A stretch of 64,000 nt of DNA, taken from NCBI RefSeq assembly GCF_009914755.1, contig NC_060925.1, one strand, 5' to 3'. Shown one piece after another: positions 5,101 to 30,728 of the stretch. Position 1 is the stretch's first letter, and every line of letters begins with the position of its first letter. The notes under the pieces were generated by a model, which ran no database searches, had not been told where the DNA came from, and worked only from the letters and a program-made list of their open reading frames with translations. The DNA is from the human T2T-CHM13v2.0 reference genome, Homo sapiens. The translations under genes were made by a program, and so were the position numbers.

Positions 5101-8100
5101 CCCCTGCCCTGCCTTTCTCTCTGTCCTTCTTTGCCTCTGGAGTAGACCTGAGGAAATTTTTAATACTAACGAGAACTTGGTGCTGCGTAGCCTCTGAGTC
5201 TGAAATGCCTGAGAAAGCAGTCCAGATTCCAACTGTAAAACATTCCTTCACCAAGCCTTGGAAACTAACATACAGAGGCCGGCAGAGTTCAGAGGGAGCA
5301 CATGTAAATGAGGCTCCGTTATAAACTCCTGAGGAGTGTTTTATTTAGTTTAAACCTGAACTTGAACTTGTAAACGGTGTTCCTTGAGAACAATACAGAA
5401 AGGTTGATGCAGTAGAACAGGAAGTCACATTTTAGCTCAGACATTTTACTCCTTTAAAAGAAGGAAACTATCTTAAAGTATTTCTTAATTGAACTGTCTT
5501 CTAGAATAGCACAAATTGGCATGTCTGCAAGATTTTTGGGATTGCAGAATCAGAATGGAAGTGTATATGTATATATATCATTTGAACTTACCACCATTCT
5601 TGCAAAATAAACAATAGAATTTCCTATCCATATGGCGATTTAACAAGAGGATATTTAAAGAGCCTGTCCACATATAACAGTCATGCCATCTGTAATTGAT
5701 TTTATTAATTGATAATAAAGTGACAGTAGAGGTGTGGGACCGTTTCAAACTAGCACTGTGTGTGTGTATTGAGAGTTTGTTCCCAAATCTCAGTTGCTGG
5801 TAGAGCACTACCAAGTGGAATTTATCCGAAAACAAAGTGAGAATGATTTTGTACGCATGCTCAATTTTATAAAACACATTCTTGAATCAGTCTTCAATAA
5901 TCTTTGCTTGCGAGATCTCCATCTCAGAAGTCACTACTAAAAAGGTAAAAAATAAATTAAATTGTCTGTGTTAGAATGATATTACCTCTCTCCAAGAAGC
6001 ATAGATCCCTGACAGGGAAGCCAAGCAGCTCTGCCAATCACGTATGCTATGTACATGTCCAGGTTGTTGGTAAGGCCCTTCACGGAGACTGTCAATGCTA
6101 TAGGATCTTCACCTTGCACAAATCCCAACCGCAGCCCCATCAAGAAGCCTCCCCCTCATATCCCCTGGAAATATTTGGGAGGAATCTAATTGTTTGTAGC
6201 AACGAATATTGCTTAGTTGTAAATTTAATCTACAAATTTAGAAGGAAATAAATCTGAACATAAAAAGCATTTGCTGTTTCAGCATTAAAAAAAAAATGCT
6301 ATCATTTGAAACTGCAAACTCTCCCATGTGGGTTTGTTTTGCAAGTCACGTCTTAACAAAGACAAGTTTTGTTGCCATAAAACCCTAAATCCTACCACAT
6401 CCTCAGAAGGAGGAGAAAAGTATTGTTCACTGGTTCCGGGTTTGGGCTTTCAGGATAACACAGAGCTATGACCGCGCACAGGGAAATTGTTTGGTATTTA
6501 TCCAGAGTTGTTGGTTCAGGTGAAACCCTGACACACACATACCTCCCATCTAGATTATATCAGTGCCTCATGTAATTATGCTCCTTACATTTTAGGCCTG
6601 TGTCTGAAAGTCGTTTTGTATTTTTAACTTTATTTTTTCCCTCAAATGATGTGATAACTAGTATCCTGAGGCCTGTTTTGCAGAAAAGTTAAAGTTGGAC
6701 CCCTGACTCCCTACAAACTAGGATTTAGATCTCTGACTCCATGATCTGACTTTTTCCATAGCCAAGCTCATTCTGACCTCAATGAAAGATAGGAACAGTT
6801 TTACCTCTCCCAATATCCCATCTACCCTGTGAACGATTAGAAAAAAAAAATGATTCCTGGCACCAGTGATATCTAAAAGCAGGTGTTCCTAGAAGGTAAA
6901 GAAAGGCATAGCAACAGGATCTTGTAGTATCCTTAGAGAGATCTGGTGAAGTTCAGGCCCCTCAGCAAGCCAGTGACTGAACTGGGACTTGAACCAGGCC
7001 ACCAGACCCGCAGTCCAGTGCTTAACTATCTTTTCTCATGAATCTGAAAACGCAGATGCCACAGTTTCCTTTGCATTCTCTCCAAATGCTGCCTGTATGT
7101 CTTGTTTCTTTGGCTCACAACAGAAGCCTTCCAGGGGTTGTGGTTTGCAGCTCAAGGCCTTCTTCACTTCATCTTAATCCTTAGGGACTGTTGGTCTGCA
7201 TGGCCTGGGAGAGAGTAGGGGTCTGTCATGATTCCTGCACAGGGATTAAACACAGGTGGAGAGGGAGGGAGACACTAACTTGAGGGGTGGGAGGAGATAG
7301 AGAATGGAACTAGAAAGACCAGGAACAGTGGACAGGGGAGAATTAAAGAGGTAACGAGCAGACCTGTGCCAGGGCTTGAGCGTGGAAGTGCCTGCTGGGG
7401 TGGAGAAGTCCAAAGGTGGCAGATGCTATCCAGTGTCTGAAGGGCTTCTTGGCTGGAAAGGTTGGTTTGGGAATTCATTTCTGGCAAAAGGCCAGATCTT
7501 CTGGCATACTGTTGCAGGATGTATCTGGGAGAATTTTTGAAATAACTGGACTTTTTACTTCAATGTTATTTTCTCTCTTACTGGACTTTATCTTCCTGCA
7601 CAATCCACACTAAGGTCTCCTTGATTGATTGGCTCTCAACCTGAGTCATGTTTGGGAAGAGCAAGAGCGAGGAGGCACGGAGTAGAATGATTATTACAAT
7701 GTGGCCACGCTCTGCTGAGCTCCGGCCTCCACTCCCACGCCTCTCTTTTTAAACAAGAAAGGTTACCTCCCTGGGCCACCATTGGGCCAACCCCAAGTGT
7801 TTCTGTCTGCACTTGTTAGACAACAGGCATTTAATTAAAATTGGAATCCGATGTGTAGAAAACATACATTTTTTCATTTCATAGCTCCCCAGGAAGTCAT
7901 ATTCCCTTCCTTCCCCACTCTCCTCAACTCTCCCCCTGCCAAAAAAATTTAAAAAAAAATTGTGAAGGAAAAGATTATTTTAATGTGAAAATCAAAAATT
8001 ACAAAGGGCTAGGCTGCTTCTTCATTTTTTGCCTTTGGGGGAGACATTAGCCAATCATAAAGCCTGTATTGTGTCTTCAGACCAGGAGCCAGCTTTTTTA

Positions 8101-12500: not shown

Positions 12501-13068
12501 AAAAAATAGATCAAAGCTCTGTGTTTACTTAATGTAAATGTATCAAGATAACATCATCCTATATTGCATTGTAATAATGCCACTCACTGCACATAGGGAG
12601 GGAGATTCCTTTGTAGTCCATTTGGATACAGTAGGGTAGATTAAGGGGCTATAAAGTACGAAGGCAGAAAGCATATGAAACCTAAGCTTATGTCACTAAA
12701 TGTCTGAGGATAGTTTTTGTTTAATGTGTTACCATTTTCCCAGTGATTTGCTGCTCAACCCCAACGATCGAATAAGCTCAGATTTCTTTTATGTTTTTCC
12801 TATATGACCCAAGAAGAAAATATGCAGAATCATTCTTCAATTAATGTTCTAAAACTTGTACTGCTTGCATAATAGAAATTATAAGAAAATATCACAAGAG
12901 AAAAGTAGGCTTTTACAAACATTATATTGTCCATCTGGTGTTACTAGCAGCTCATGGAAGTTTCTAGGAATTGACTGGCTTACACATGTGTGACTGTCAC
13001 ACTCATCCCAATGGGATTATGAGTGTCTTTACAAACTGATTAGGAGAAAATTCAGGGAGATGTATGAA

Positions 13069-13095
13069 TTATTATTATTATTATTATTATTATTA
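13069..13095 (+). repeat. (TTA)n microsatellite
   Basis: Seen directly. Confidence 0.9.
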
Positions 13096-14249
13096 GAACT
13101 ATCTGCCATCTCTGCAAATAAATGATTTAATCAGAGACTTCAAAAAAGAAAAATTCCCTGTGTGGTTCCCCTAACCAACTTCCTATTCTGGAAAACCTTG
13201 GTCAAGTAGCTGGGTTAATTGTCATGAAGATTAGTGTGATGTTGAAATAAGTACTAATGGTCAAATTATAGGAGTGAACAAGTTTAAGAATAGGTTTTGG
13301 TTTGGGCCTGAAAGGGTTAATTAAGGTTTTTTCACGGGTTATTAAAGACCCCCAACCTCTGCCTTCAGGAGTCATATTGACACCCCACCACAGGGCAGCT
13401 CAGCCCCTCTGTTGACATGTTGCTGGTCAGAGCACAATAGCCTTCTGTGTCTGCAAATCATTGCTAAAATCATCTCAAGGAAAAAAAAGTTTGAAAGCTT
13501 TAACGTTAGACAAAAGCCCAAGAGTTGCAGCGTGCAGCCCAAAAACCTGGAGTCAGCAACTTCTATTGATTAAAAACTAACCTTTAAAGTAACTCTGAGA
13601 GTGTGTGGTTAGCATTTAAATTTAAACATGTCATGAGTTGATTTGTGTTACTGAATACCAACTCAGAAGGAGTAACATTCACATCGCATTTTTTTTTTCT
13701 AATTCCCTTAAGCAGCTAAAGTATTTCATGAAATGTCAATAGGGCAAAAAGAAAAAGAGGTGGGGGGCTGATGCTGGGCCTTGTAGTTTTCTTTCCCATG
13801 CAAATATCCACCCCCCAAAAGAAAAGTGTGCAGAGTGAAACACAATAATTAGTCCTTTGTCTAACTTTCCCAAGTGCCAGAGAAAGACAGATTAATTAAA
13901 TATACAACAATGTTGGTTTTTGGAGTGGGGGTCTTGCTTGCTGTGTAGGTCATAAATTAGGCAGAATAAATACTTCAATGTGTTTGCAGTGGGCCTGCTA
14001 CGTCAGAACCACTGGAAGGTTGGTGGGAGGAGAGCAGAGGGTTTCTTGCTAATGATAGTCACGTCTGGGTCTGTCTGGTTGCTCTTAGCAACCAGACATG
14101 ATGTAACACCAGGATGAACTTGAACTTGGGGGACTTGAAAAGAGAACAATAGACCAGAGCAATCAATAAAGCCTATTTCAGTGAAGGATTACAGAGCTGC
14201 TCTGGGGTAACCTTGTCGGCAAGGCACATACTGAATAGTAAGATGTGTG

Positions 14250-14280
<31 letters not shown>

Positions 14281-16090
14281 GCTTTGCTTTTTAAGAGAAG
14301 TGCAGAGGCACTGCAGATTTTTGTAGTGCCCTGAGGTCTCGTCCAGAAACTGTGGTGTGGAGAACTGCTCCCCCTGCTGACTCACTGGGTGCCAGGCCTT
14401 TGCTTCAAGAACTACCTTAGTGTCAGATTGAAGAAGTCTGGAATTTCACAACCGACTTAGAAAGTGTGAAAACAGAAATAGTAAGCATTATTCCCCGCAC
14501 CCAAAGTTTGAACCTGTTTTGTAGAAGGGAGGAAGCGGCTCTAACGTGGATGAGAGTCAGCTGTTAGGTAGAGGCCTACTAGAAACACAGTTTGGGGTTT
14601 GCTTTCTCTCTCCTTTCTCTCCCCCTCTTCTTTCTTTTGTCCAGCTAGATTTAGGCCATGTGTATTTGCCAGGCTGATTTCCTTTCAGGACACAAGAGGC
14701 TTTATTGTGTTCCTCAAAGCATGTGGTCAAAGAATAACATCTGAAAGTCTACAGGATGCGTAGTTTTTCGGTCTGGGCTTAAGTTTTTTAAACTCCTCTG
14801 GAAATCAAAGGTGGCTTGTGTGACTAGGAAATCTTATACCAAACTCCATGTAGCTATCACTTAGCCATTCATCCCTGGGGACCAAATGAGTCCTTACATT
14901 ACCTAATGGAATCTCTTCCACAGGGATGATCCTTCACCTGCCTGAAGCAACCCAATTAGAACCCTTTCTGATACCGTCAACTTAAAGAATTCAGAAGCAT
15001 TGGTTTTTGTTAGGCCTTGGTAATTTTTCTGTAAATAATGATAAATGTAGTGAATTTGTCAAGGTATCTCTAGAGAAAAGTCGGCAAAAGCCACATACTT
15101 TTTTATTTCACTGGAGAAACTAACTCTGATGTTAGTCCATAATTGCTCATTCTGTCTAGCTAACAGAAAAAGAAATGCCAGCAGATAAAGTGATATATGA
15201 CCAGACAATTGCTCAAAGCTAACCACCTAAGGATTTACGAAAGGAAAAGGTAACCAGTAACTGGGCCTGGCAGGCACACAGAAGGCTCTAAATAAATGCT
15301 GCATGGACGCAAGCATGAATGAAGGGTACGCAGTGGCCTCATTTTTCCTTTGGACAATGTGGTACTTAATAGAGTAAAATCTTGATCCTACTTAGTTATT
15401 ATGTTTCATGTTTGAAAATACCATTTTAGATATATTGGGCTGAAAGGAGCATCTTCCCTCATAAAATCCTACATATGTAAGGAAGGAAAAATACTGTGAC
15501 TTGCTCAAAATCACCCAGGAAGACTGGGTCCAGCACTTTTTCCACCTTACCTCCACTTATTCTTGTGTCGCTATTGACCATCTGGGCCTGTTAGGAGAGT
15601 GTCACAATCATGGCTTCAGTGCCTGCACCTCATTTGAAAGGAGATGTTGAAAATCATCAGAGTAGCCATTCATTGCCACATGAAACCCCTCCCTTTACCC
15701 ATTCTCCATTCATTCAACTCTTCTTCATTAAGAACGTTCTGTATTCCAGGCACTGGGCTAGGCACTGAGGATTGAATGATAAACAAGATGGTCAAGTTTC
15801 CTGCCCTCCTATAACTGCCCCCATCAGTTAACAAAACCCTTATTTGTATTTCAAGTGAACAGAAATACCTCATTCTGTAAGATATACTCAGAATGTTGGA
15901 AAACCCCAATGAAGACAATGAATTATAATTTCAGAAGAATAAGATCAGTTTCAGTGTCACAGGATTTTTTATTGTCTGTCGTGCCTTTACTTTTCCCAGC
16001 GAATCCCTCCCGCATCCCTAACGTAGATCCTGATTTCGTGGTTGAAAAGGCAACTTCTAAAACACACGTTTTTACAAATTGTGATTTTAA

Positions 16091-25720: not shown

Positions 25721-26639
25721 CCTTCCCCGCGGAAGGCTTAGAGAACATTACTGCAGCCTAGTTAAGAGAGGAGAGAGAAGTAGGACCTGAGTGGAGAGGG
25801 CTGCCAAAGAAAGCTACTGCAGCAATGGAAGAGATGACAGACTCCCAGGCTGTGGTGCCCATGATAGAATGTAAGAGAAGTGGATAGATGCGAGAGATTA
25901 ATACGGGTATTAATAGCCACTGCATATTGAGCTCTTTCATGTGCCAAGTGCTATAGGTGATTTATCCCATTAAATTGAATATGTTCTCTCTTATTGTAGC
26001 TCTCAGAAAGGTATAGTCAGTCCTCAAAACACATTGCTGACTCAAGTGAATAGAGCAATTTCACATGTACATGCCTTAGAGTTTAAGTTAGACCAAATCA
26101 GTCACTACCTTATTTCAGTCTTGAGTATTTGGGATTAAGAAATTGGAATGAAAGTCAGCCGACACCACCCCTTTATTGACATACTCTATGACAAGTGGTG
26201 TGTAATACTGGGCTCAAAGGGAAGGTAATGCAGTGATCAAAACGATGGACTCAGACCCAGTCAGCCTGGGTTGAATCCTGGCTCTGCATTTTATTAGCTC
26301 TGTGGTGTTGGCAAGTGCCTCAGTTTCCCCATTGGTAAGATGGGAATAATTATAACAGCACCGAACTACTTCATAGGGCTGATGTAGATTTTTGATGAGT
26401 TAAATTTTGTAAAGTGGTTAACAGTGGCTTGGCATATTGTAAATGCTATGTGAATGCTGTAACTAACTCAACAAATGATTCCAAAATGTAGGCATAAGGC
26501 ATTCTTTCAGTGCACCATTGGCATAAACCTTCTTCCTCTTCCTGATCATTTTCAGGCCTCTATTTGGGGGAATTCTGAAACCTTTCATCTAACACCTGCC
26601 TCAACTAAGTAGGAGGAAGTAGCATACAAAATTAGTCCA

Positions 26640-27150
26640 GGAATAAAGAAAATGTGGTATATATCCACAATGGAATATTATTCAGCCATAAAAGAATGAA
26701 ATTCTGCCATTTGCAGCAACATGGATGAGCCCAGGGGACATTATCGTTAAGTGAAATAAGCCAGGCGCAAAAAGGCAAATACTGCATGTTCTCACTCATG
26801 TGAAAGCAAAAGTTGATCTTGTAGAGAGTAGAACAGTGGTGACCAGAGGCAGGAAAAGCGGTGTGTGCAGGATAACAAGTTGGCTAATGGGTACAAAATT
26901 ACACTTAGGATAAATAAGTTATAGTGTTCTTATAGCGTAGTAGGATATATGTAGCTAACAATAATATATTGTACATATCAAAATAGCTAGAAGAGAGGGT
27001 TTTGAATGTTCCCAACACAAAGAAATGATCAACATTGGAGGTGATCGATATTTCAATTAGCCTGATTTTATCATTACACATTGTATACATTCATTGAAAG
27101 AACACATGTACCCCATAAATATATATGATTATTATGTATCAATTTAAAAC
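26640..27150 (+). mobile_element. L1 3' end (L1MA-type)
   Basis: AAGAAAATGTGGTATATATCCACAATGGAATATTATTCAGCCATAAAAG...GCATGTTCTCACTCATG...ATGTACCCCATAAATAT. Confidence 0.9.
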
Positions 27151-27159
27151 TTAAAAGAA

Positions 27160-27458
27160 TTTTTTGAGATGGAATCTTACTCTGTTGCCCAGGCTGAAGT
27201 ACAGTGGCACAGTCTTGGCTCATTGCAGCCTCCACCTCCTGGTTTCAAGCAATTCTTGATCCTTGTGCATCAGCCTCCTGAGTAGCTGAGATTACAGGTG
27301 TGCGCCACCATGCCCAGCTATTTTTTATATTTTTAGTAGAGTTGGGGTTTTGCCATGTTGCCCAGGCTGGTCTTGAACTTCTGGCCCCAAGTGATCTGCC
27401 CACTTCAGCCTCCCAAAGTGCCCGCCAGGATTATAGGCGTGAACCACTGCACCCAGCC
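27160..27458 (-). mobile_element. Alu inserted in the L1 tail
   Basis: Full dimeric Alu, reverse strand; TSD AAAACTTAAAA at 27146-27156 and 27459-27469. Confidence 0.92.
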
Positions 27459-27470
27459 AAAACTTAAAAA

Positions 27471-27515
27471 TGTATGTGTGTATATATATATACATATATA
27501 TATACATATATATAC

Positions 27516-27579
<64 letters not shown>
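27471..27579 (+). repeat. Compound (TA)n/(CA)n/(TA)n microsatellite
   Basis: Seen directly; abuts the left arm of the inverted duplication. Confidence 0.95.
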
Positions 27580-27580
<1 letters not shown>

Positions 27581-27582
<2 letters not shown>

Positions 27583-28179
27583 GCACCATTGCACTCCAGC
27601 CTGGGCGACAGAGCGACACTCCGTCTCAAAAAAAAAAAAAAAAAAAGAGTGGATTTCCCTGGCAGTCAGAATACCGTTAAGGAAAATACGAACCAGAGCC
27701 AGGTGAGGCCATCTCTCTGGGTTCCATCCAATCTAGTCTGGTGCCCGATGCTTGGAACTGTGCTTCCCAGCACATTCTCATCCATGTTCATTGAGCCATT
27801 CGGACTTCTCTCTTGAGGGCGGCAGAGATTGCTGCGTTCATTTTACCAGTGAGGAAACTGAGACTCCGAGGTGCAGTAACTTGCTTAGTGTTATGTGGCC
27901 AGTAAGTGGTGGAAGTGGGACTCACAATCCAGTCCTCTAGTTTCAAGCCAGGCTCCTTTCCACTATACAATACTGCCCTCCAGGGTGCCAGGGTTCTTCT
28001 CCTTGGAGAGGCACCAGAGTAATAGTTGTTATGTGGTTGATACTGCGCTGGGTGTTTTACATGCATTAATTTCATTTAACCCTTTTAATGACCTTATAAG
28101 GTAGTTACTATCCTTATTCCCATTTTACATATAGGGAAATTGAGGCCCTATATGTAACTAATAAAATGACAAACCAAGA
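27581..28179 (+). repeat. Left arm (copy) of a ~600-bp inverted duplication
   Basis: Reverse complement of 28630-29255. ORF track shows twin peptides on opposite strands (MELCFPAHSH.. 27752+ / 28874-; MASKWWKWDS.. 27895+ / 28710-). Confidence 0.97.
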
Positions 28180-28565
<386 letters not shown>

Positions 28566-28629
28566 TAATAGAAATATGAAAGGAAAAAAAATGAATCCAG
28601 GATCTGAGACCAGACACACTGGGCTTAAG

Positions 28630-29489
<860 letters not shown>

Positions 29490-30728
29490 GGGAAATCCAC
29501 TCTTAACAGGCAAGGAAAGGAGGCCAAGAGACTGGCACCAGTCATCATTTTAACCATCCACGTTCTGCCTCTTTGGTAAAAGAACATGGCTAAATAGTAA
29601 AGATCCCACTGGCGGAGAAGCAGGGCTTCCCTTGACTTATGAGGAATGAAATACCTTCTGGTTCATCTCTGAAACACATTAGGCCATTGTAAATTTGCTT
29701 TCCATCTGGCACACTCAGTATGGATTTTAAGTCTTTTTATAGGAAACCTGGTAAAACAAATAAAAAGCACATTTATCTCTACTATCACATTAAATTTTTT
29801 ATTATGGAACAATATCATGCATGTACAAATTAAAGAGATTGATGAACAAATTAATATGTACCTATCGTCCATCACTTGTAATCAATGGCTCCCCCGTTTA
29901 CACCCCAGCCACTTCCTGACTGACCACCCCCAGGTTATTTTAAAACAAATATCAGGTATCCATAAATTTCATTTCGTCCCCAAATTTTTAGACTATATCT
30001 CTAAAAGACAAGAATTCTTTTATAAGACGTACTCAAAATACCATTTTATACCTCAAAATAGTAACAATAATTTCTTAATATCACTGAATAACCAGTCTGT
30101 TCAAAAACTCCTATCTTATAATTTTTTAAAAATAGTTTGTCCAAATAAGAAACATTCACTAAATGGTTTGTATATGCCTTAAGTCTTTATAACTGTAGGG
30201 TCTCCTTCCCTCTCTGGTATTTTCCTTGTAACAATTTGCTTGAGAAACTGGGTCATTTGTCCTGAAGAGTTTTTCACAGGATTTGGTGGATTATATCAAT
30301 GTGGCATACACAGTTCAGCATGTTCTACCATAAAATTGGAAGCATATTCCTGACCTTGGAAGTTGACCCTATGGGATGAAATCCCAAGACTGTTTCACAG
30401 ATAAATCATGGGAAGGACTAAGGGACTTGCCCTTGGGTTTGTGTCCTGACTTTCTGGAAACTGTGGGCAAATAACTGGCCCAAAGGGCAAGCTGCTTCAG
30501 GACAGTTCTATGCTGCTGATTTTTGTTTTGTTTTGTATTGTTTCATCTAACAGGGAAAGCGAAGGCTAAGGGAGGGCCTACTGAATGACAAAGGACCCTG
30601 TCCTTTGTCAGCTTCTACTGATATTAAAAACAAAAACAAACAAACAAAAAAACAGACAAAAAAACTATTTCCACCTTAACAGGGAAGATGAATAATTCTG
30701 GTTGAAAACTCAAGATTAAAGTCTGTCT

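What the first reader, a model, noticed from the sequence alone, without database searches (positions are those of the whole stretch)
28125..28157. Fold-back template-switch scar inside the duplicated arm
Seen: the donor, reverse-complemented, reads GGCCCT-TAATATTGCAG-AACTAAT, but the copy reads GGCCCT-ATATGT-AACTAAT. The new bases make CCCTATATGTAA (28146-28157) the exact reverse complement of TTACATATAGGG (28125-28136). This is a perfect 12-bp stem with a 9-nt loop that the donor lacks, and it lies 22 bp from the duplication breakpoint. Inference: the polymerase switched strand using CCCT and AA microhomologies, a quasi-palindrome-type signature seen in MMBIR/FoSTeS or Pol-theta templated insertions. 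The duplication therefore involved several template switches.
Basis: partly seen in the sequence, partly recalled or inferred. Interest (0 to 1): 0.7.

Follow-up and report, generated by a model that had tools for sequence, protein, structure and literature searches.

The report
Template-switch scar in an inverted duplicate
A 600-base inverted copy of nearby non-coding DNA downstream of NFIA carries a small rewritten patch that was copied backwards from sequence 9 bases away, a known kind of DNA-copying error and otherwise ordinary.

Summary
Window 27581-28179 is an inverted copy of 28630-29255. The copy reads GGCCCT-ATATGT-AACTAAT where the source (reverse-complemented) reads GGCCCT-TAATATTGCAG-AACTAAT. 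This makes 28146-28157 the exact reverse complement of 28125-28136: a 12-bp stem with a 9-nt loop, 22 nt from the arm's end.

It is not chance. Only 5 of 4096 possible six-mers at that site would be templated as well.

I could settle polarity without outgroups. The source's 11-mer lines up without gaps with the CAAGGTCACAG-like stretch of independent MIR repeat copies elsewhere in the genome. The copy's ATATGT does not, so the copy carries the derived state. The genome holds no third close copy that could have donated the patch.

This is a classic quasi-palindrome-perfecting template switch (Ripley type; four-point type 3-2-1-4).

Timing is not shown. The arms differ by 7 of 574 aligned bases (1.2%), so there were millions of years in which a separate event could have occurred. 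Ape and pangenome haplotypes would decide, and none were available here.

It is a new member of a known kind, with no sign of function and low interest.

The parts
28125..28136 (+). Template arm of the hairpin, TTACATATAGGG. It is MIR-derived and identical in both arms of the duplication.
28137..28145 (+). 9-nt loop AAATTGAGG. It is the same in both arms and is not inverted.
28146..28157 (+). Rewritten arm CCCTATATGTAA. CCCT (28146-28149) and AA (28156-28157) are shared with the donor and serve as microhomologies. ATATGT (28150-28155) is new sequence replacing 11 donor bases.
28654..28664 (-). Ancestral 11-mer TAATATTGCAG in the source arm (read on the minus strand). It is homologous to the CAAGGTCACAG-like stretch of other MIR copies.
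28678..28689 (+). The source arm's copy of the template arm. It reads CCCTATATGTAA on the plus strand, so its minus strand is an alternative template if the switch happened during copying.
27581..28179 (+). Left arm: the derived inverted copy, 599 nt. It holds the last 47 nt of an Alu (27581-27627), A19 (27628-27646) and about 530 nt of unique or MIR sequence, and it cuts the MIR off at 28179.
28630..29255 (-). Right arm: the source, 626 nt. It is continuous with the rest of the MIR (28546-28629) and with the complete Alu.
29170..29489 (-). Complete young-looking Alu in the source. It is flanked by 15-bp target-site duplications GGGAAATCCACTCTT at 29155-29169 and 29490-29504. Only its 3' end was copied into the left arm, so the duplication is younger than this Alu.
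   Evidence: Metazoa_SRP-like matches at 29207-29354 and 29374-29488, below gathering score; the Y-type label is my own reading, no repeat library was available
27471..27580 (.). TG/TA/CA microsatellite directly left of the inserted copy (acceptor side).
28180..28265 (.). TAGA/TA microsatellite directly right of the inserted copy (acceptor side). It abuts an older Alu at about 28266-28543. AGA is shared between the arm's end and the repeat unit.

Best explanation
The patch is a quasi-palindrome-perfecting template-switch mutation in the derived (left) copy of a local inverted duplication.

The large event. About 626 nt at 28630-29255, including the tail end of an Alu, were copied in inverted orientation into a TA-rich microsatellite about 450 bp away. 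This is itself a large switch-and-return event, of four-point order 1-4-3-2.

The small event. The strand being made read ...TTACATATAGGGAAATTGAGGCCCT. Its CCCT end then re-paired with AGGG nine bases back, either on the nascent strand itself or on the donor's other strand. Synthesis copied ATATGTAA from that wrong template. The end then returned to the proper template at AA and copied the last 22-24 nt.

The result. Eleven MIR-derived bases were replaced by six templated ones, and an imperfect palindrome (CCCT/AGGG plus ATAT/ATAT) became a perfect 12-bp one.

What is shown:
- the templated nature of the patch;
- its polarity: the left arm is derived and the source is unchanged;
- the microhomologies;
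- the absence of any other donor in the genome.

What is inferred: that the small switch belongs to the same low-processivity copying episode as the duplication, a stalled fork or a break in the TA repeat of MMBIR/FoSTeS type. My confidence that the patch is a template-switch mutation derived in the left arm is about 0.9. My confidence that it was simultaneous with the duplication is about 0.55, and that is the figure given below.

There is no evidence of function. The site is non-coding, 4.5 kb past the NFIA 3' end.
For: - Exact 12/12 reverse complement with a 9-nt loop.
- All six new bases are explained by one local template with 4 + 2 flanking matches. Only 5 of 4096 six-mers would do as well.
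- The cluster needs an edit distance of 6; P = 3.6e-4 for three or more independent events in 11 bp.
- The right-arm state has no template within +-300 or +-1000 bp.
- Direction of the duplication: the right arm holds the whole Alu with its 15-bp target-site duplications and continues the MIR past the breakpoint. The left arm holds only 47 nt of the Alu and a truncated MIR.
- Polarity of the patch: in 10 independent MIR copies, the right arm's 11-mer matches 7, 7, 7, 6, 6, 5, 4, 3, 2 and 1 of 11 columns without a gap. GCAG/ACAG/ACAG lie under its GCAG in 3 copies. The left arm needs a 5-nt gap there. Against the window's own MIR at 26.2 kb, the right arm matches 10 of 16 (118 of 2000 shuffles do as well) and the left arm 6 of 11 (1946 of 2000).
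- The whole genome has only these two close copies. Of 39 matches, 37 are 73-84% MIR cores.

For simultaneity:
- The patch lies 22 nt from the breakpoint.
- Germline inverted templated insertions are often multi-template: 33 of 103 and 26 of 99 events (PMC8421209, passages).
- In yeast double-strand-break repair, quasi-palindromes are perfected in the recipient while the donor stays unchanged, and repair-associated mutation is about 1000 times the spontaneous rate (bioRxiv 10.1101/2023.08.09.552703, abstract and introduction).
- Variants are enriched around structural-variant breakpoints (PMC4937565, passages).
- The source arm holds the same imperfect palindrome and has stayed uncorrected.
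Against: - Nothing in a single genome dates the patch.
- The arms differ by 7 of 574 bases (1.2%, 95% CI 0.5-2.5%). That is about the human-chimpanzee distance, so there was a long period in which an ordinary replication template switch could have hit the left arm.
- Such events are common genome-wide: 4778 candidates between human and chimpanzee (PMC5453318, section 6) and 4017 across great apes (PMC7954356, section 8).
- If the yeast 1000-fold figure is set against the tens of millions of germline replications since the duplication, the later event is favoured.
- The copied fragment is at most 12 nt. [quoted passage not shown]
- The large junctions show little microhomology: 0 nt plus an orphan C on the left, and at most AGA on the right. 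They lie in microsatellites that may have changed since.
Confidence: 0.55

Rival explanations
1. The mechanism is the same (a short inverted template switch perfecting the quasi-palindrome), but it was a separate, later replication error in the left arm, unconnected to the duplication. Its nearness to the breakpoint is then a coincidence.
For: - The arms are 1.2% diverged and both have accumulated ordinary substitutions, so the copy is millions of years old.
- Thousands of such events separate great-ape genomes (PMC5453318; PMC7954356).
- Event type 1-4-3-2/3-2-1-4 makes up 31% of high-confidence events, the median copied fragment is 12 nt, and 29.5% of events shorten the sequence. This one is typical on all three counts.
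Against: - My rough estimate is 4778 events over about 1.4 Gb (genome length recalled), or about 3e-6 per bp at human-chimpanzee distance. That gives about 1e-3 expected in a 599-nt arm, and about a tenth of that within 30 nt of an end.
- The identical imperfect palindrome in the source arm has not been corrected over the same or a longer time.
- No event is listed at the locus in the great-ape catalogue. This is weak evidence: my GRCh38 coordinate is recalled, and the site may have been masked or filtered.
Confidence: 0.33
2. The six bases were copied forward from the acceptor flank rather than from the inverted arm. ATATGTA occurs both in the scar (28150-28156) and across the breakpoint (28179-28185). 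This would suggest a first, abortive return to the microsatellite before the final one.
For: There is a 7-nt direct repeat 29 nt apart. Multi-template germline insertions with forward copies exist (PMC8421209).
Against: The match is only 7 nt, against 12 nt for the inverted template, and has no flanking match on the left. A 6-7-mer match within +-50 bp of AT-rich sequence is expected by chance at roughly the 5% level (my estimate). The forward model does not explain the perfect hairpin.
Confidence: 0.05
3. The cluster is an unrelated run of small deletions and substitutions, or the change happened in the right arm so that ATATGT is ancestral, or the patch came by gene conversion from a third paralogue, or it is an assembly error.
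For: None specific. Clustered mutations and MIR-to-MIR conversion do exist in general.
Against: - Chance cluster: P = 3.6e-4, and exact templating holds for only 5 of 4096 six-mers.
- The right-arm 11-mer is MIR-homologous and has no local template.
- The genome has no third close copy.
- Arms with 1.2% scattered differences in a telomere-to-telomere assembly do not look like a collapse or a chimera.
Confidence: 0.05

Closest known systems
Quasi-palindrome correction (Ripley 1982 model) / short template-switch mutation, four-point model type 3-2-1-4 (mirror of 1-4-3-2) of Loytynoja and Goldman 2017 (PMC5453318) and Walker et al. 2021 (PMC7954356)
   Same: A cluster of differences between two close sequences is fully explained by a reverse-complement copy of sequence a few bases away. 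An imperfect inverted repeat becomes perfect and the spacer is unchanged. The order of switch points needs no opening of the new helix. The fragment length of 12 equals the reported median, and a net shortening is seen in 29.5% of reported events.
   Different: The comparison here is between two paralogous arms in one genome, not between orthologues. The fragment is below the 14-bp high-confidence filter. The event lies 22 nt from the breakpoint of a larger inverted duplication, so it may be part of a compound event. Both papers say their model does not treat compound events.
MMBIR / FoSTeS templated insertions (MMB-TI; Osia et al. 2021, PMC8421209) and complex replicative rearrangements
   Same: An inverted copy of a nearby template is inserted with little or no homology at the junctions, possibly with more than one template used in one event. 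Multi-template events make up 26-32% of germline MMB-TIs in that study.
   Different: MMB-TIs as defined there have templates within 100 bp. Here the large template lies 450-1075 bp away and is about 600 nt long. Whether the two switches were one event is untested, and no enzyme can be assigned from sequence.
Quasi-palindrome mutagenesis during double-strand-break repair synthesis in yeast (Sugawara et al. 2023, bioRxiv 10.1101/2023.08.09.552703)
   Same: The recipient copy carries the perfected palindrome while the donor stays unaltered. The arm met first by the polymerase serves as the wrong template.
   Different: That system is homologous gene conversion with an engineered 18-bp palindrome. 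Here the copying is non-homologous, the stem is 12 bp, and the event is an evolutionary fossil.
Polymerase-theta end joining / SD-MMEJ snap-back synthesis; ODIRA
   Same: Short microhomology-primed snap-back synthesis gives small inverted templated patches. ODIRA proposes a switch from the leading strand to the lagging-strand template, which yields inverted copies.
   Different: Pol-theta inserts sit at the junction itself, not 22 nt inside the copied tract. ODIRA gives large amplicons bounded by short inverted repeats and containing an origin. None of that is seen or testable here.

Membership tests
Short template-switch mutation (four-point model) | A cluster of two or more differences within 10 bp between two closely related sequences | tested here: met
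   11 nt are replaced by 6 nt (edit distance 6), while the rest of the arms differ at 7 of 574 sites.
Short template-switch mutation (four-point model) | The dissimilar stretch is explained by a reverse-complement copy of nearby sequence with flanking continuity | tested here: met
   A 12/12 match to 28125-28136, 9 nt away, covers all 6 new bases plus 4 + 2 flanking bases. Only 5 of 4096 six-mers do as well.
Short template-switch mutation (four-point model) | A copied (2->3) fragment of at least 14 bp, the high-confidence filter of PMC5453318 | tested here: not met
   The fragment is at most 12 nt. The paper says short events can still be real, and the median in PMC7954356 is 12.
Short template-switch mutation (four-point model) | Ancestral and derived states are established | tested here: met
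   Established by paralogue and repeat-family comparison, not by outgroup species. The source 11-mer is homologous to independent MIR copies, and the source arm is the original.
Short template-switch mutation (four-point model) | A switch-point order in which point 4 does not precede point 1 | tested here: met
   The order on the left-arm plus strand is 3 (28125), 2 (28136), 1 (28145-28149), 4 (28156): type 3-2-1-4.
MMBIR/FoSTeS compound rearrangement (several switches in one event) | Microhomology at the switch junctions | tested here: inconclusive
   The small switch has CCCT (4 nt) and AA (2 nt). The large junctions have 0 nt plus an orphan C at 27580, and at most AGA at 28177-28179. Both lie in microsatellites that may have changed since.
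MMBIR/FoSTeS compound rearrangement (several switches in one event) | All switches arose in the same event (same haplotype history, no intermediates) | not testable with these tools
   No ape genomes or human pangenome haplotypes were available. Only the window's own genome could be searched.
Polymerase-theta templated insertion | A templated insert located at the repair junction, with dependence on POLQ | tested here: not met
   The patch lies 22-29 nt inside the copied tract, not at the junction. Enzyme dependence cannot be read from sequence.
Structured RNA / microRNA hairpin | A match to a curated RNA family, or a stem of precursor length | tested here: not met
   There is no Rfam match at 28125-28157 at E <= 1. 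All 31 matches in 27000-29800 fall below gathering score and lie in Alus or microsatellites. The stem is only 12 bp.

The most novel reading that the evidence does not exclude
The locus may be a germline fossil of one compound copying accident seen at two scales. A fork stalled, or a break formed, in a TA microsatellite. The nascent end jumped about 1 kb ahead to the opposite strand and copied about 600 nt backwards. About 25 nt before returning, it slipped once more onto a 12-nt inverted template. So a kilobase-scale 1-4-3-2 switch contains a nested 3-2-1-4 switch. If ape and pangenome data show no intermediate haplotype, paralogous arms of local inverted duplications could be used genome-wide as built-in 'before and after' pairs. 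These would measure how error-prone such copying is in the human germline, without needing outgroups.
Probability: 0.5. Interest if true: 0.35.

Novelty: new member of a known kind. Interest (0 to 1): 0.25.

Why it matters
The locus itself matters little. It is non-coding, 4.5 kb past NFIA, and has no sign of function. Its value is as a clean worked example. The unchanged source copy and the MIR family together give the ancestral state, so a template-switch mutation can be polarised inside one genome. If the scar proves coeval with the duplication, it would be a natural germline case of iterative template switching at two scales. It also suggests a way to survey repair-associated mutagenesis by comparing the arms of young local inverted duplications.

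Tried and rejected
Only the window's own genome was searchable.
- I looked for the event in published catalogues. The great-ape list of PMC7954356 (supplement 4, 4016 rows) has no entry starting 6145, 6146 or 6147, but my GRCh38 coordinate (about chr1:61.467 Mb) is recalled, not computed.
- A search of the supplements of PMC9435742 found nothing, but only 10 of 22 files were read and the main data file gave no text. Neither result says much.
- Carvalho et al. 2013 (Nat Genet) is not held. It is cited only through PMC4937565.
- Local BLAST of MIR copies stops at GAGGC just before the cluster, whichever arm is the query: 34 of 34 non-arm hits end at query position 103 or lower, and 33 of them at 95 or lower. 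Local hits alone could therefore not polarise the change. Extending nine copies by 110 nt and aligning them did.
- For that alignment I kept the 9 of 12 fetched loci whose match reached query position 91 or higher, plus the window's own copy. I dropped L004 and L011 (the same place, match ends at 76) and L006 (ends at 58).
- The second small cluster between the arms (27848 and 27853) has no local template in either state.
- Rfam gave nothing at the hairpin.
- I considered and rejected four readings: change in the right arm, gene conversion from a third copy, chance cluster, and assembly error (see rivals).

Full report
**What is there.** The window holds a local inverted duplication. The left arm 27581-28179 (599 nt) is the reverse complement of the right arm 28630-29255 (626 nt), and 450 nt lie between them. 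Outside one cluster the arms differ by 7 single substitutions in about 574 aligned non-homopolymer bases (1.2%, Poisson 95% CI 0.5-2.5%) and by an A-run of 19 versus 41.

At the cluster the right arm, reverse-complemented, reads GGCCCT-TAATATTGCAG-AACTAAT. The left arm reads GGCCCT-ATATGT-AACTAAT. The stem ends 22 nt before the arm's end at 28179.

**Which arm is the original.** The right arm is the source.
- It contains a complete young-looking Alu (29170-29489, minus strand) flanked by 15-bp target-site duplications at 29155-29169 and 29490-29504.
- The left arm has only the last 47 nt of that Alu, its A-tail and one copy of the target site.
- The MIR element that holds the cluster continues past the breakpoint in the right arm (28546-28629) but is cut off at 28179 in the left arm.
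- The left arm sits between two microsatellites, 27471-27580 (TG/TA/CA) and 28180-28265 (TAGA/TA). It therefore looks like a 600-nt inverted templated insertion into a TA-rich repeat.
- The Alu calls rest on my reading and on sub-threshold Metazoa_SRP matches. No repeat library was available.

**Is the hairpin more than chance?** Yes.
- I placed every possible six-mer at the site. 5 of 4096 give a templated match of 12 nt or more within +-50 to +-200 bp, and 6 of 4096 do within +-1000 bp. Random inserts of 4-12 nt were fully templated with at least 6 flanking matches in 22 of 20000 trials (+-100 bp) and 57 of 20000 (+-1000 bp).
- The two states are 6 edits apart. At the arms' background rate, three or more independent events in 11 bp have P = 3.6e-4, or 0.019 corrected for 52 stretches.
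- The left version folds as DNA at -9.2 kcal/mol (z = -3.61; 0 of 200 shuffles as good). The right version folds at -3.0 kcal/mol (z = 0.26; 117 of 200) and lacks this hairpin.
- The whole 64-kb window has 4 perfect 12-bp stems with loops of 3-20 nt, and 2 of them are in the TA microsatellite.

**Polarity of the change.** Three internal lines agree that the left arm is derived.
1. *Templates.* The left state is fully templated. The right state has no template, forward or inverted, within +-300 or +-1000 bp, and none of its 8-mers recurs in 27000-30000.
2. *The window's own MIR at 26230-26365.* It aligns with the right-arm segment at 10 of 16 bases (118 of 2000 shuffles do as well). It aligns with the left-arm segment at 6 of 11 (1946 of 2000 do as well).
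3. *Independent MIR copies.* I extended nine MIR copies from other chromosomes past the point where local matches stop and aligned them with both arms and the 26-kb copy. The right arm's TAATATTGCAG falls, without a gap, in the columns where these copies read CAAGGTCGCAG, CAAGATCACAG, CAACATTCGAG, CAAGGTTACAA, CAACACCACAG and CAAAGTCACAT. The ten copies match 7, 7, 7, 6, 6, 5, 4, 3, 2 and 1 of the 11 columns. The left arm needs a 5-nt gap that removes the CACAG motif.

The 11-mer is therefore inherited from the MIR, and ATATGT is new. Of the 12 fetched loci I kept the 9 whose match reached query position 91 or higher. L004 and L011 (one place) and L006 were dropped because their matches end before the cluster.

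**No other donor.** Searching the window's whole genome with the left arm gave 39 matches. Two are the arms (100% and 97% identity). The other 37 are MIR cores of 73-84% identity. With the right-arm version there were 36 matches: the 2 arms and 34 MIR cores, all ending at query position 103 or lower. Gene conversion from a third paralogue is therefore out. The 12-mer occurs three times in the window, as the two hairpin arms and as the right arm's own copy at 28678-28689.

**Mechanism.** The source already held an imperfect palindrome: AGGG/CCCT, then ATAT/ATAT after a 2-nt bulge.
- *Steps of the switch.* A strand growing left to right through the left arm reached ...GAGGCCCT. Its end re-paired with AGGG (28133-28136) and copied ATATGTAA off TTACATAT. 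It then returned to the proper template at AA and went on for the last 22-24 nt.
- *Classification.* This is Ripley-type quasi-palindrome correction. In the four-point model it is order 3-2-1-4, the mirror of 1-4-3-2, which makes up 31% of high-confidence human-chimpanzee events (PMC5453318, section 6 read). A 12-nt fragment equals the median in great apes, and 29.5% of events shorten the sequence (PMC7954356, section 8 part 1 read).
- *Fold-back or donor strand.* The wrong template may have been the nascent strand itself, or, if the switch happened while the donor was being copied, the donor's other strand at 28678-28689. The loop is not inverted, so the two cannot be told apart.
- *The large event.* The large duplication has the same formal shape at kilobase scale. 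Synthesis leaves at 27580, copies 29255 down to 28630 from the opposite strand, and returns at 28180.

**Timing is the open point.**

*For:*
- The scar is 22 nt from the breakpoint.
- Germline inverted templated insertions in two people were multi-template in 33 of 103 and 26 of 99 cases (PMC8421209, passages).
- In yeast break repair the palindrome is perfected in the recipient while the donor is unchanged, and repair synthesis is about 1000 times more mutagenic than replication (bioRxiv 10.1101/2023.08.09.552703, abstract and introduction).
- Variants are enriched near structural-variant breakpoints (PMC4937565, passages).
- The source's identical imperfect palindrome has stayed uncorrected.

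*Against:*
- The arms are as diverged as human and chimpanzee single-copy DNA, so the copy has been replicated for millions of years.
- Spontaneous template switches are common: 4778 candidates between human and chimpanzee.
That is small, but it is not negligible against an unknown per-event chance of a nested switch.
- On the yeast 1000-fold figure alone, the later event would be favoured.

I put 0.55 on 'same event' and 0.33 on 'later event'.

**What is known, and novelty.** The kind is well described in the papers above, but I found no record of this locus. The great-ape catalogue has no row starting 6145-6147 (my GRCh38 coordinate is recalled). The supplement search of PMC9435742 was incomplete, with 10 of 22 files read.

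There is no sign of function. The site is non-coding, 4.5 kb past the NFIA 3' end, and lies outside the annotated enhancers. There is no Rfam match at the hairpin, and all 31 matches in 27000-29800 fall below gathering score and lie in Alus or microsatellites.

Verdict: a real, correctly described template-switch scar and a new member of a known kind. The link to the duplication is plausible but unproven. Interest is low to modest.

Noticed in passing
window 28150-28156 and 28179-28185: ATATGTA occurs both in the scar and across the duplication breakpoint, 29 nt apart, as a 7-nt direct repeat. This could be chance in AT-rich sequence, or a trace of an abortive first return to the acceptor microsatellite.
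   Followed up: partly
window 14072-14098: A perfect 12-bp stem with a 3-nt loop (TGTCTGGTTGCT-CTT-AGCAACCAGACA) lies inside the RefSeq-annotated enhancer 12936-15331. Apart from the scar, it is the only hairpin of this kind in the window outside microsatellites.
   Followed up: no
window 27848 and 27853 versus 28966 and 28961: Two of the seven substitutions between the arms lie 5 bp apart (left CCAGTGAGG, right CCGGTGAAG). Neither state has a local template. By my recalled MIR core (GAGGAAACTGAG), the right arm looks like the changed one at the second site.
   Followed up: partly
window 26230-26365 (minus strand) versus 28546-28715 (minus strand): The MIR copy 2.3 kb upstream shares an unusual build with the arm's MIR: the same roughly 20-nt gap after GAGGC relative to other MIR copies, and CTAATAAAATG. 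They are 72.6% identical over 106 nt (E = 2e-12). This may be an old local duplication or a shared subfamily.
   Followed up: no
window 27628-27646 versus 29168-29208: The Alu A-tail is 19 nt in the copy and 41 nt in the source. The difference could come from slippage during copying or from later homopolymer drift.
   Followed up: no
window 27580: A single orphan C lies between the (TA)n run and the first copied base at the left junction. It is either untemplated or a later change, and there is no microhomology at this junction.
   Followed up: no
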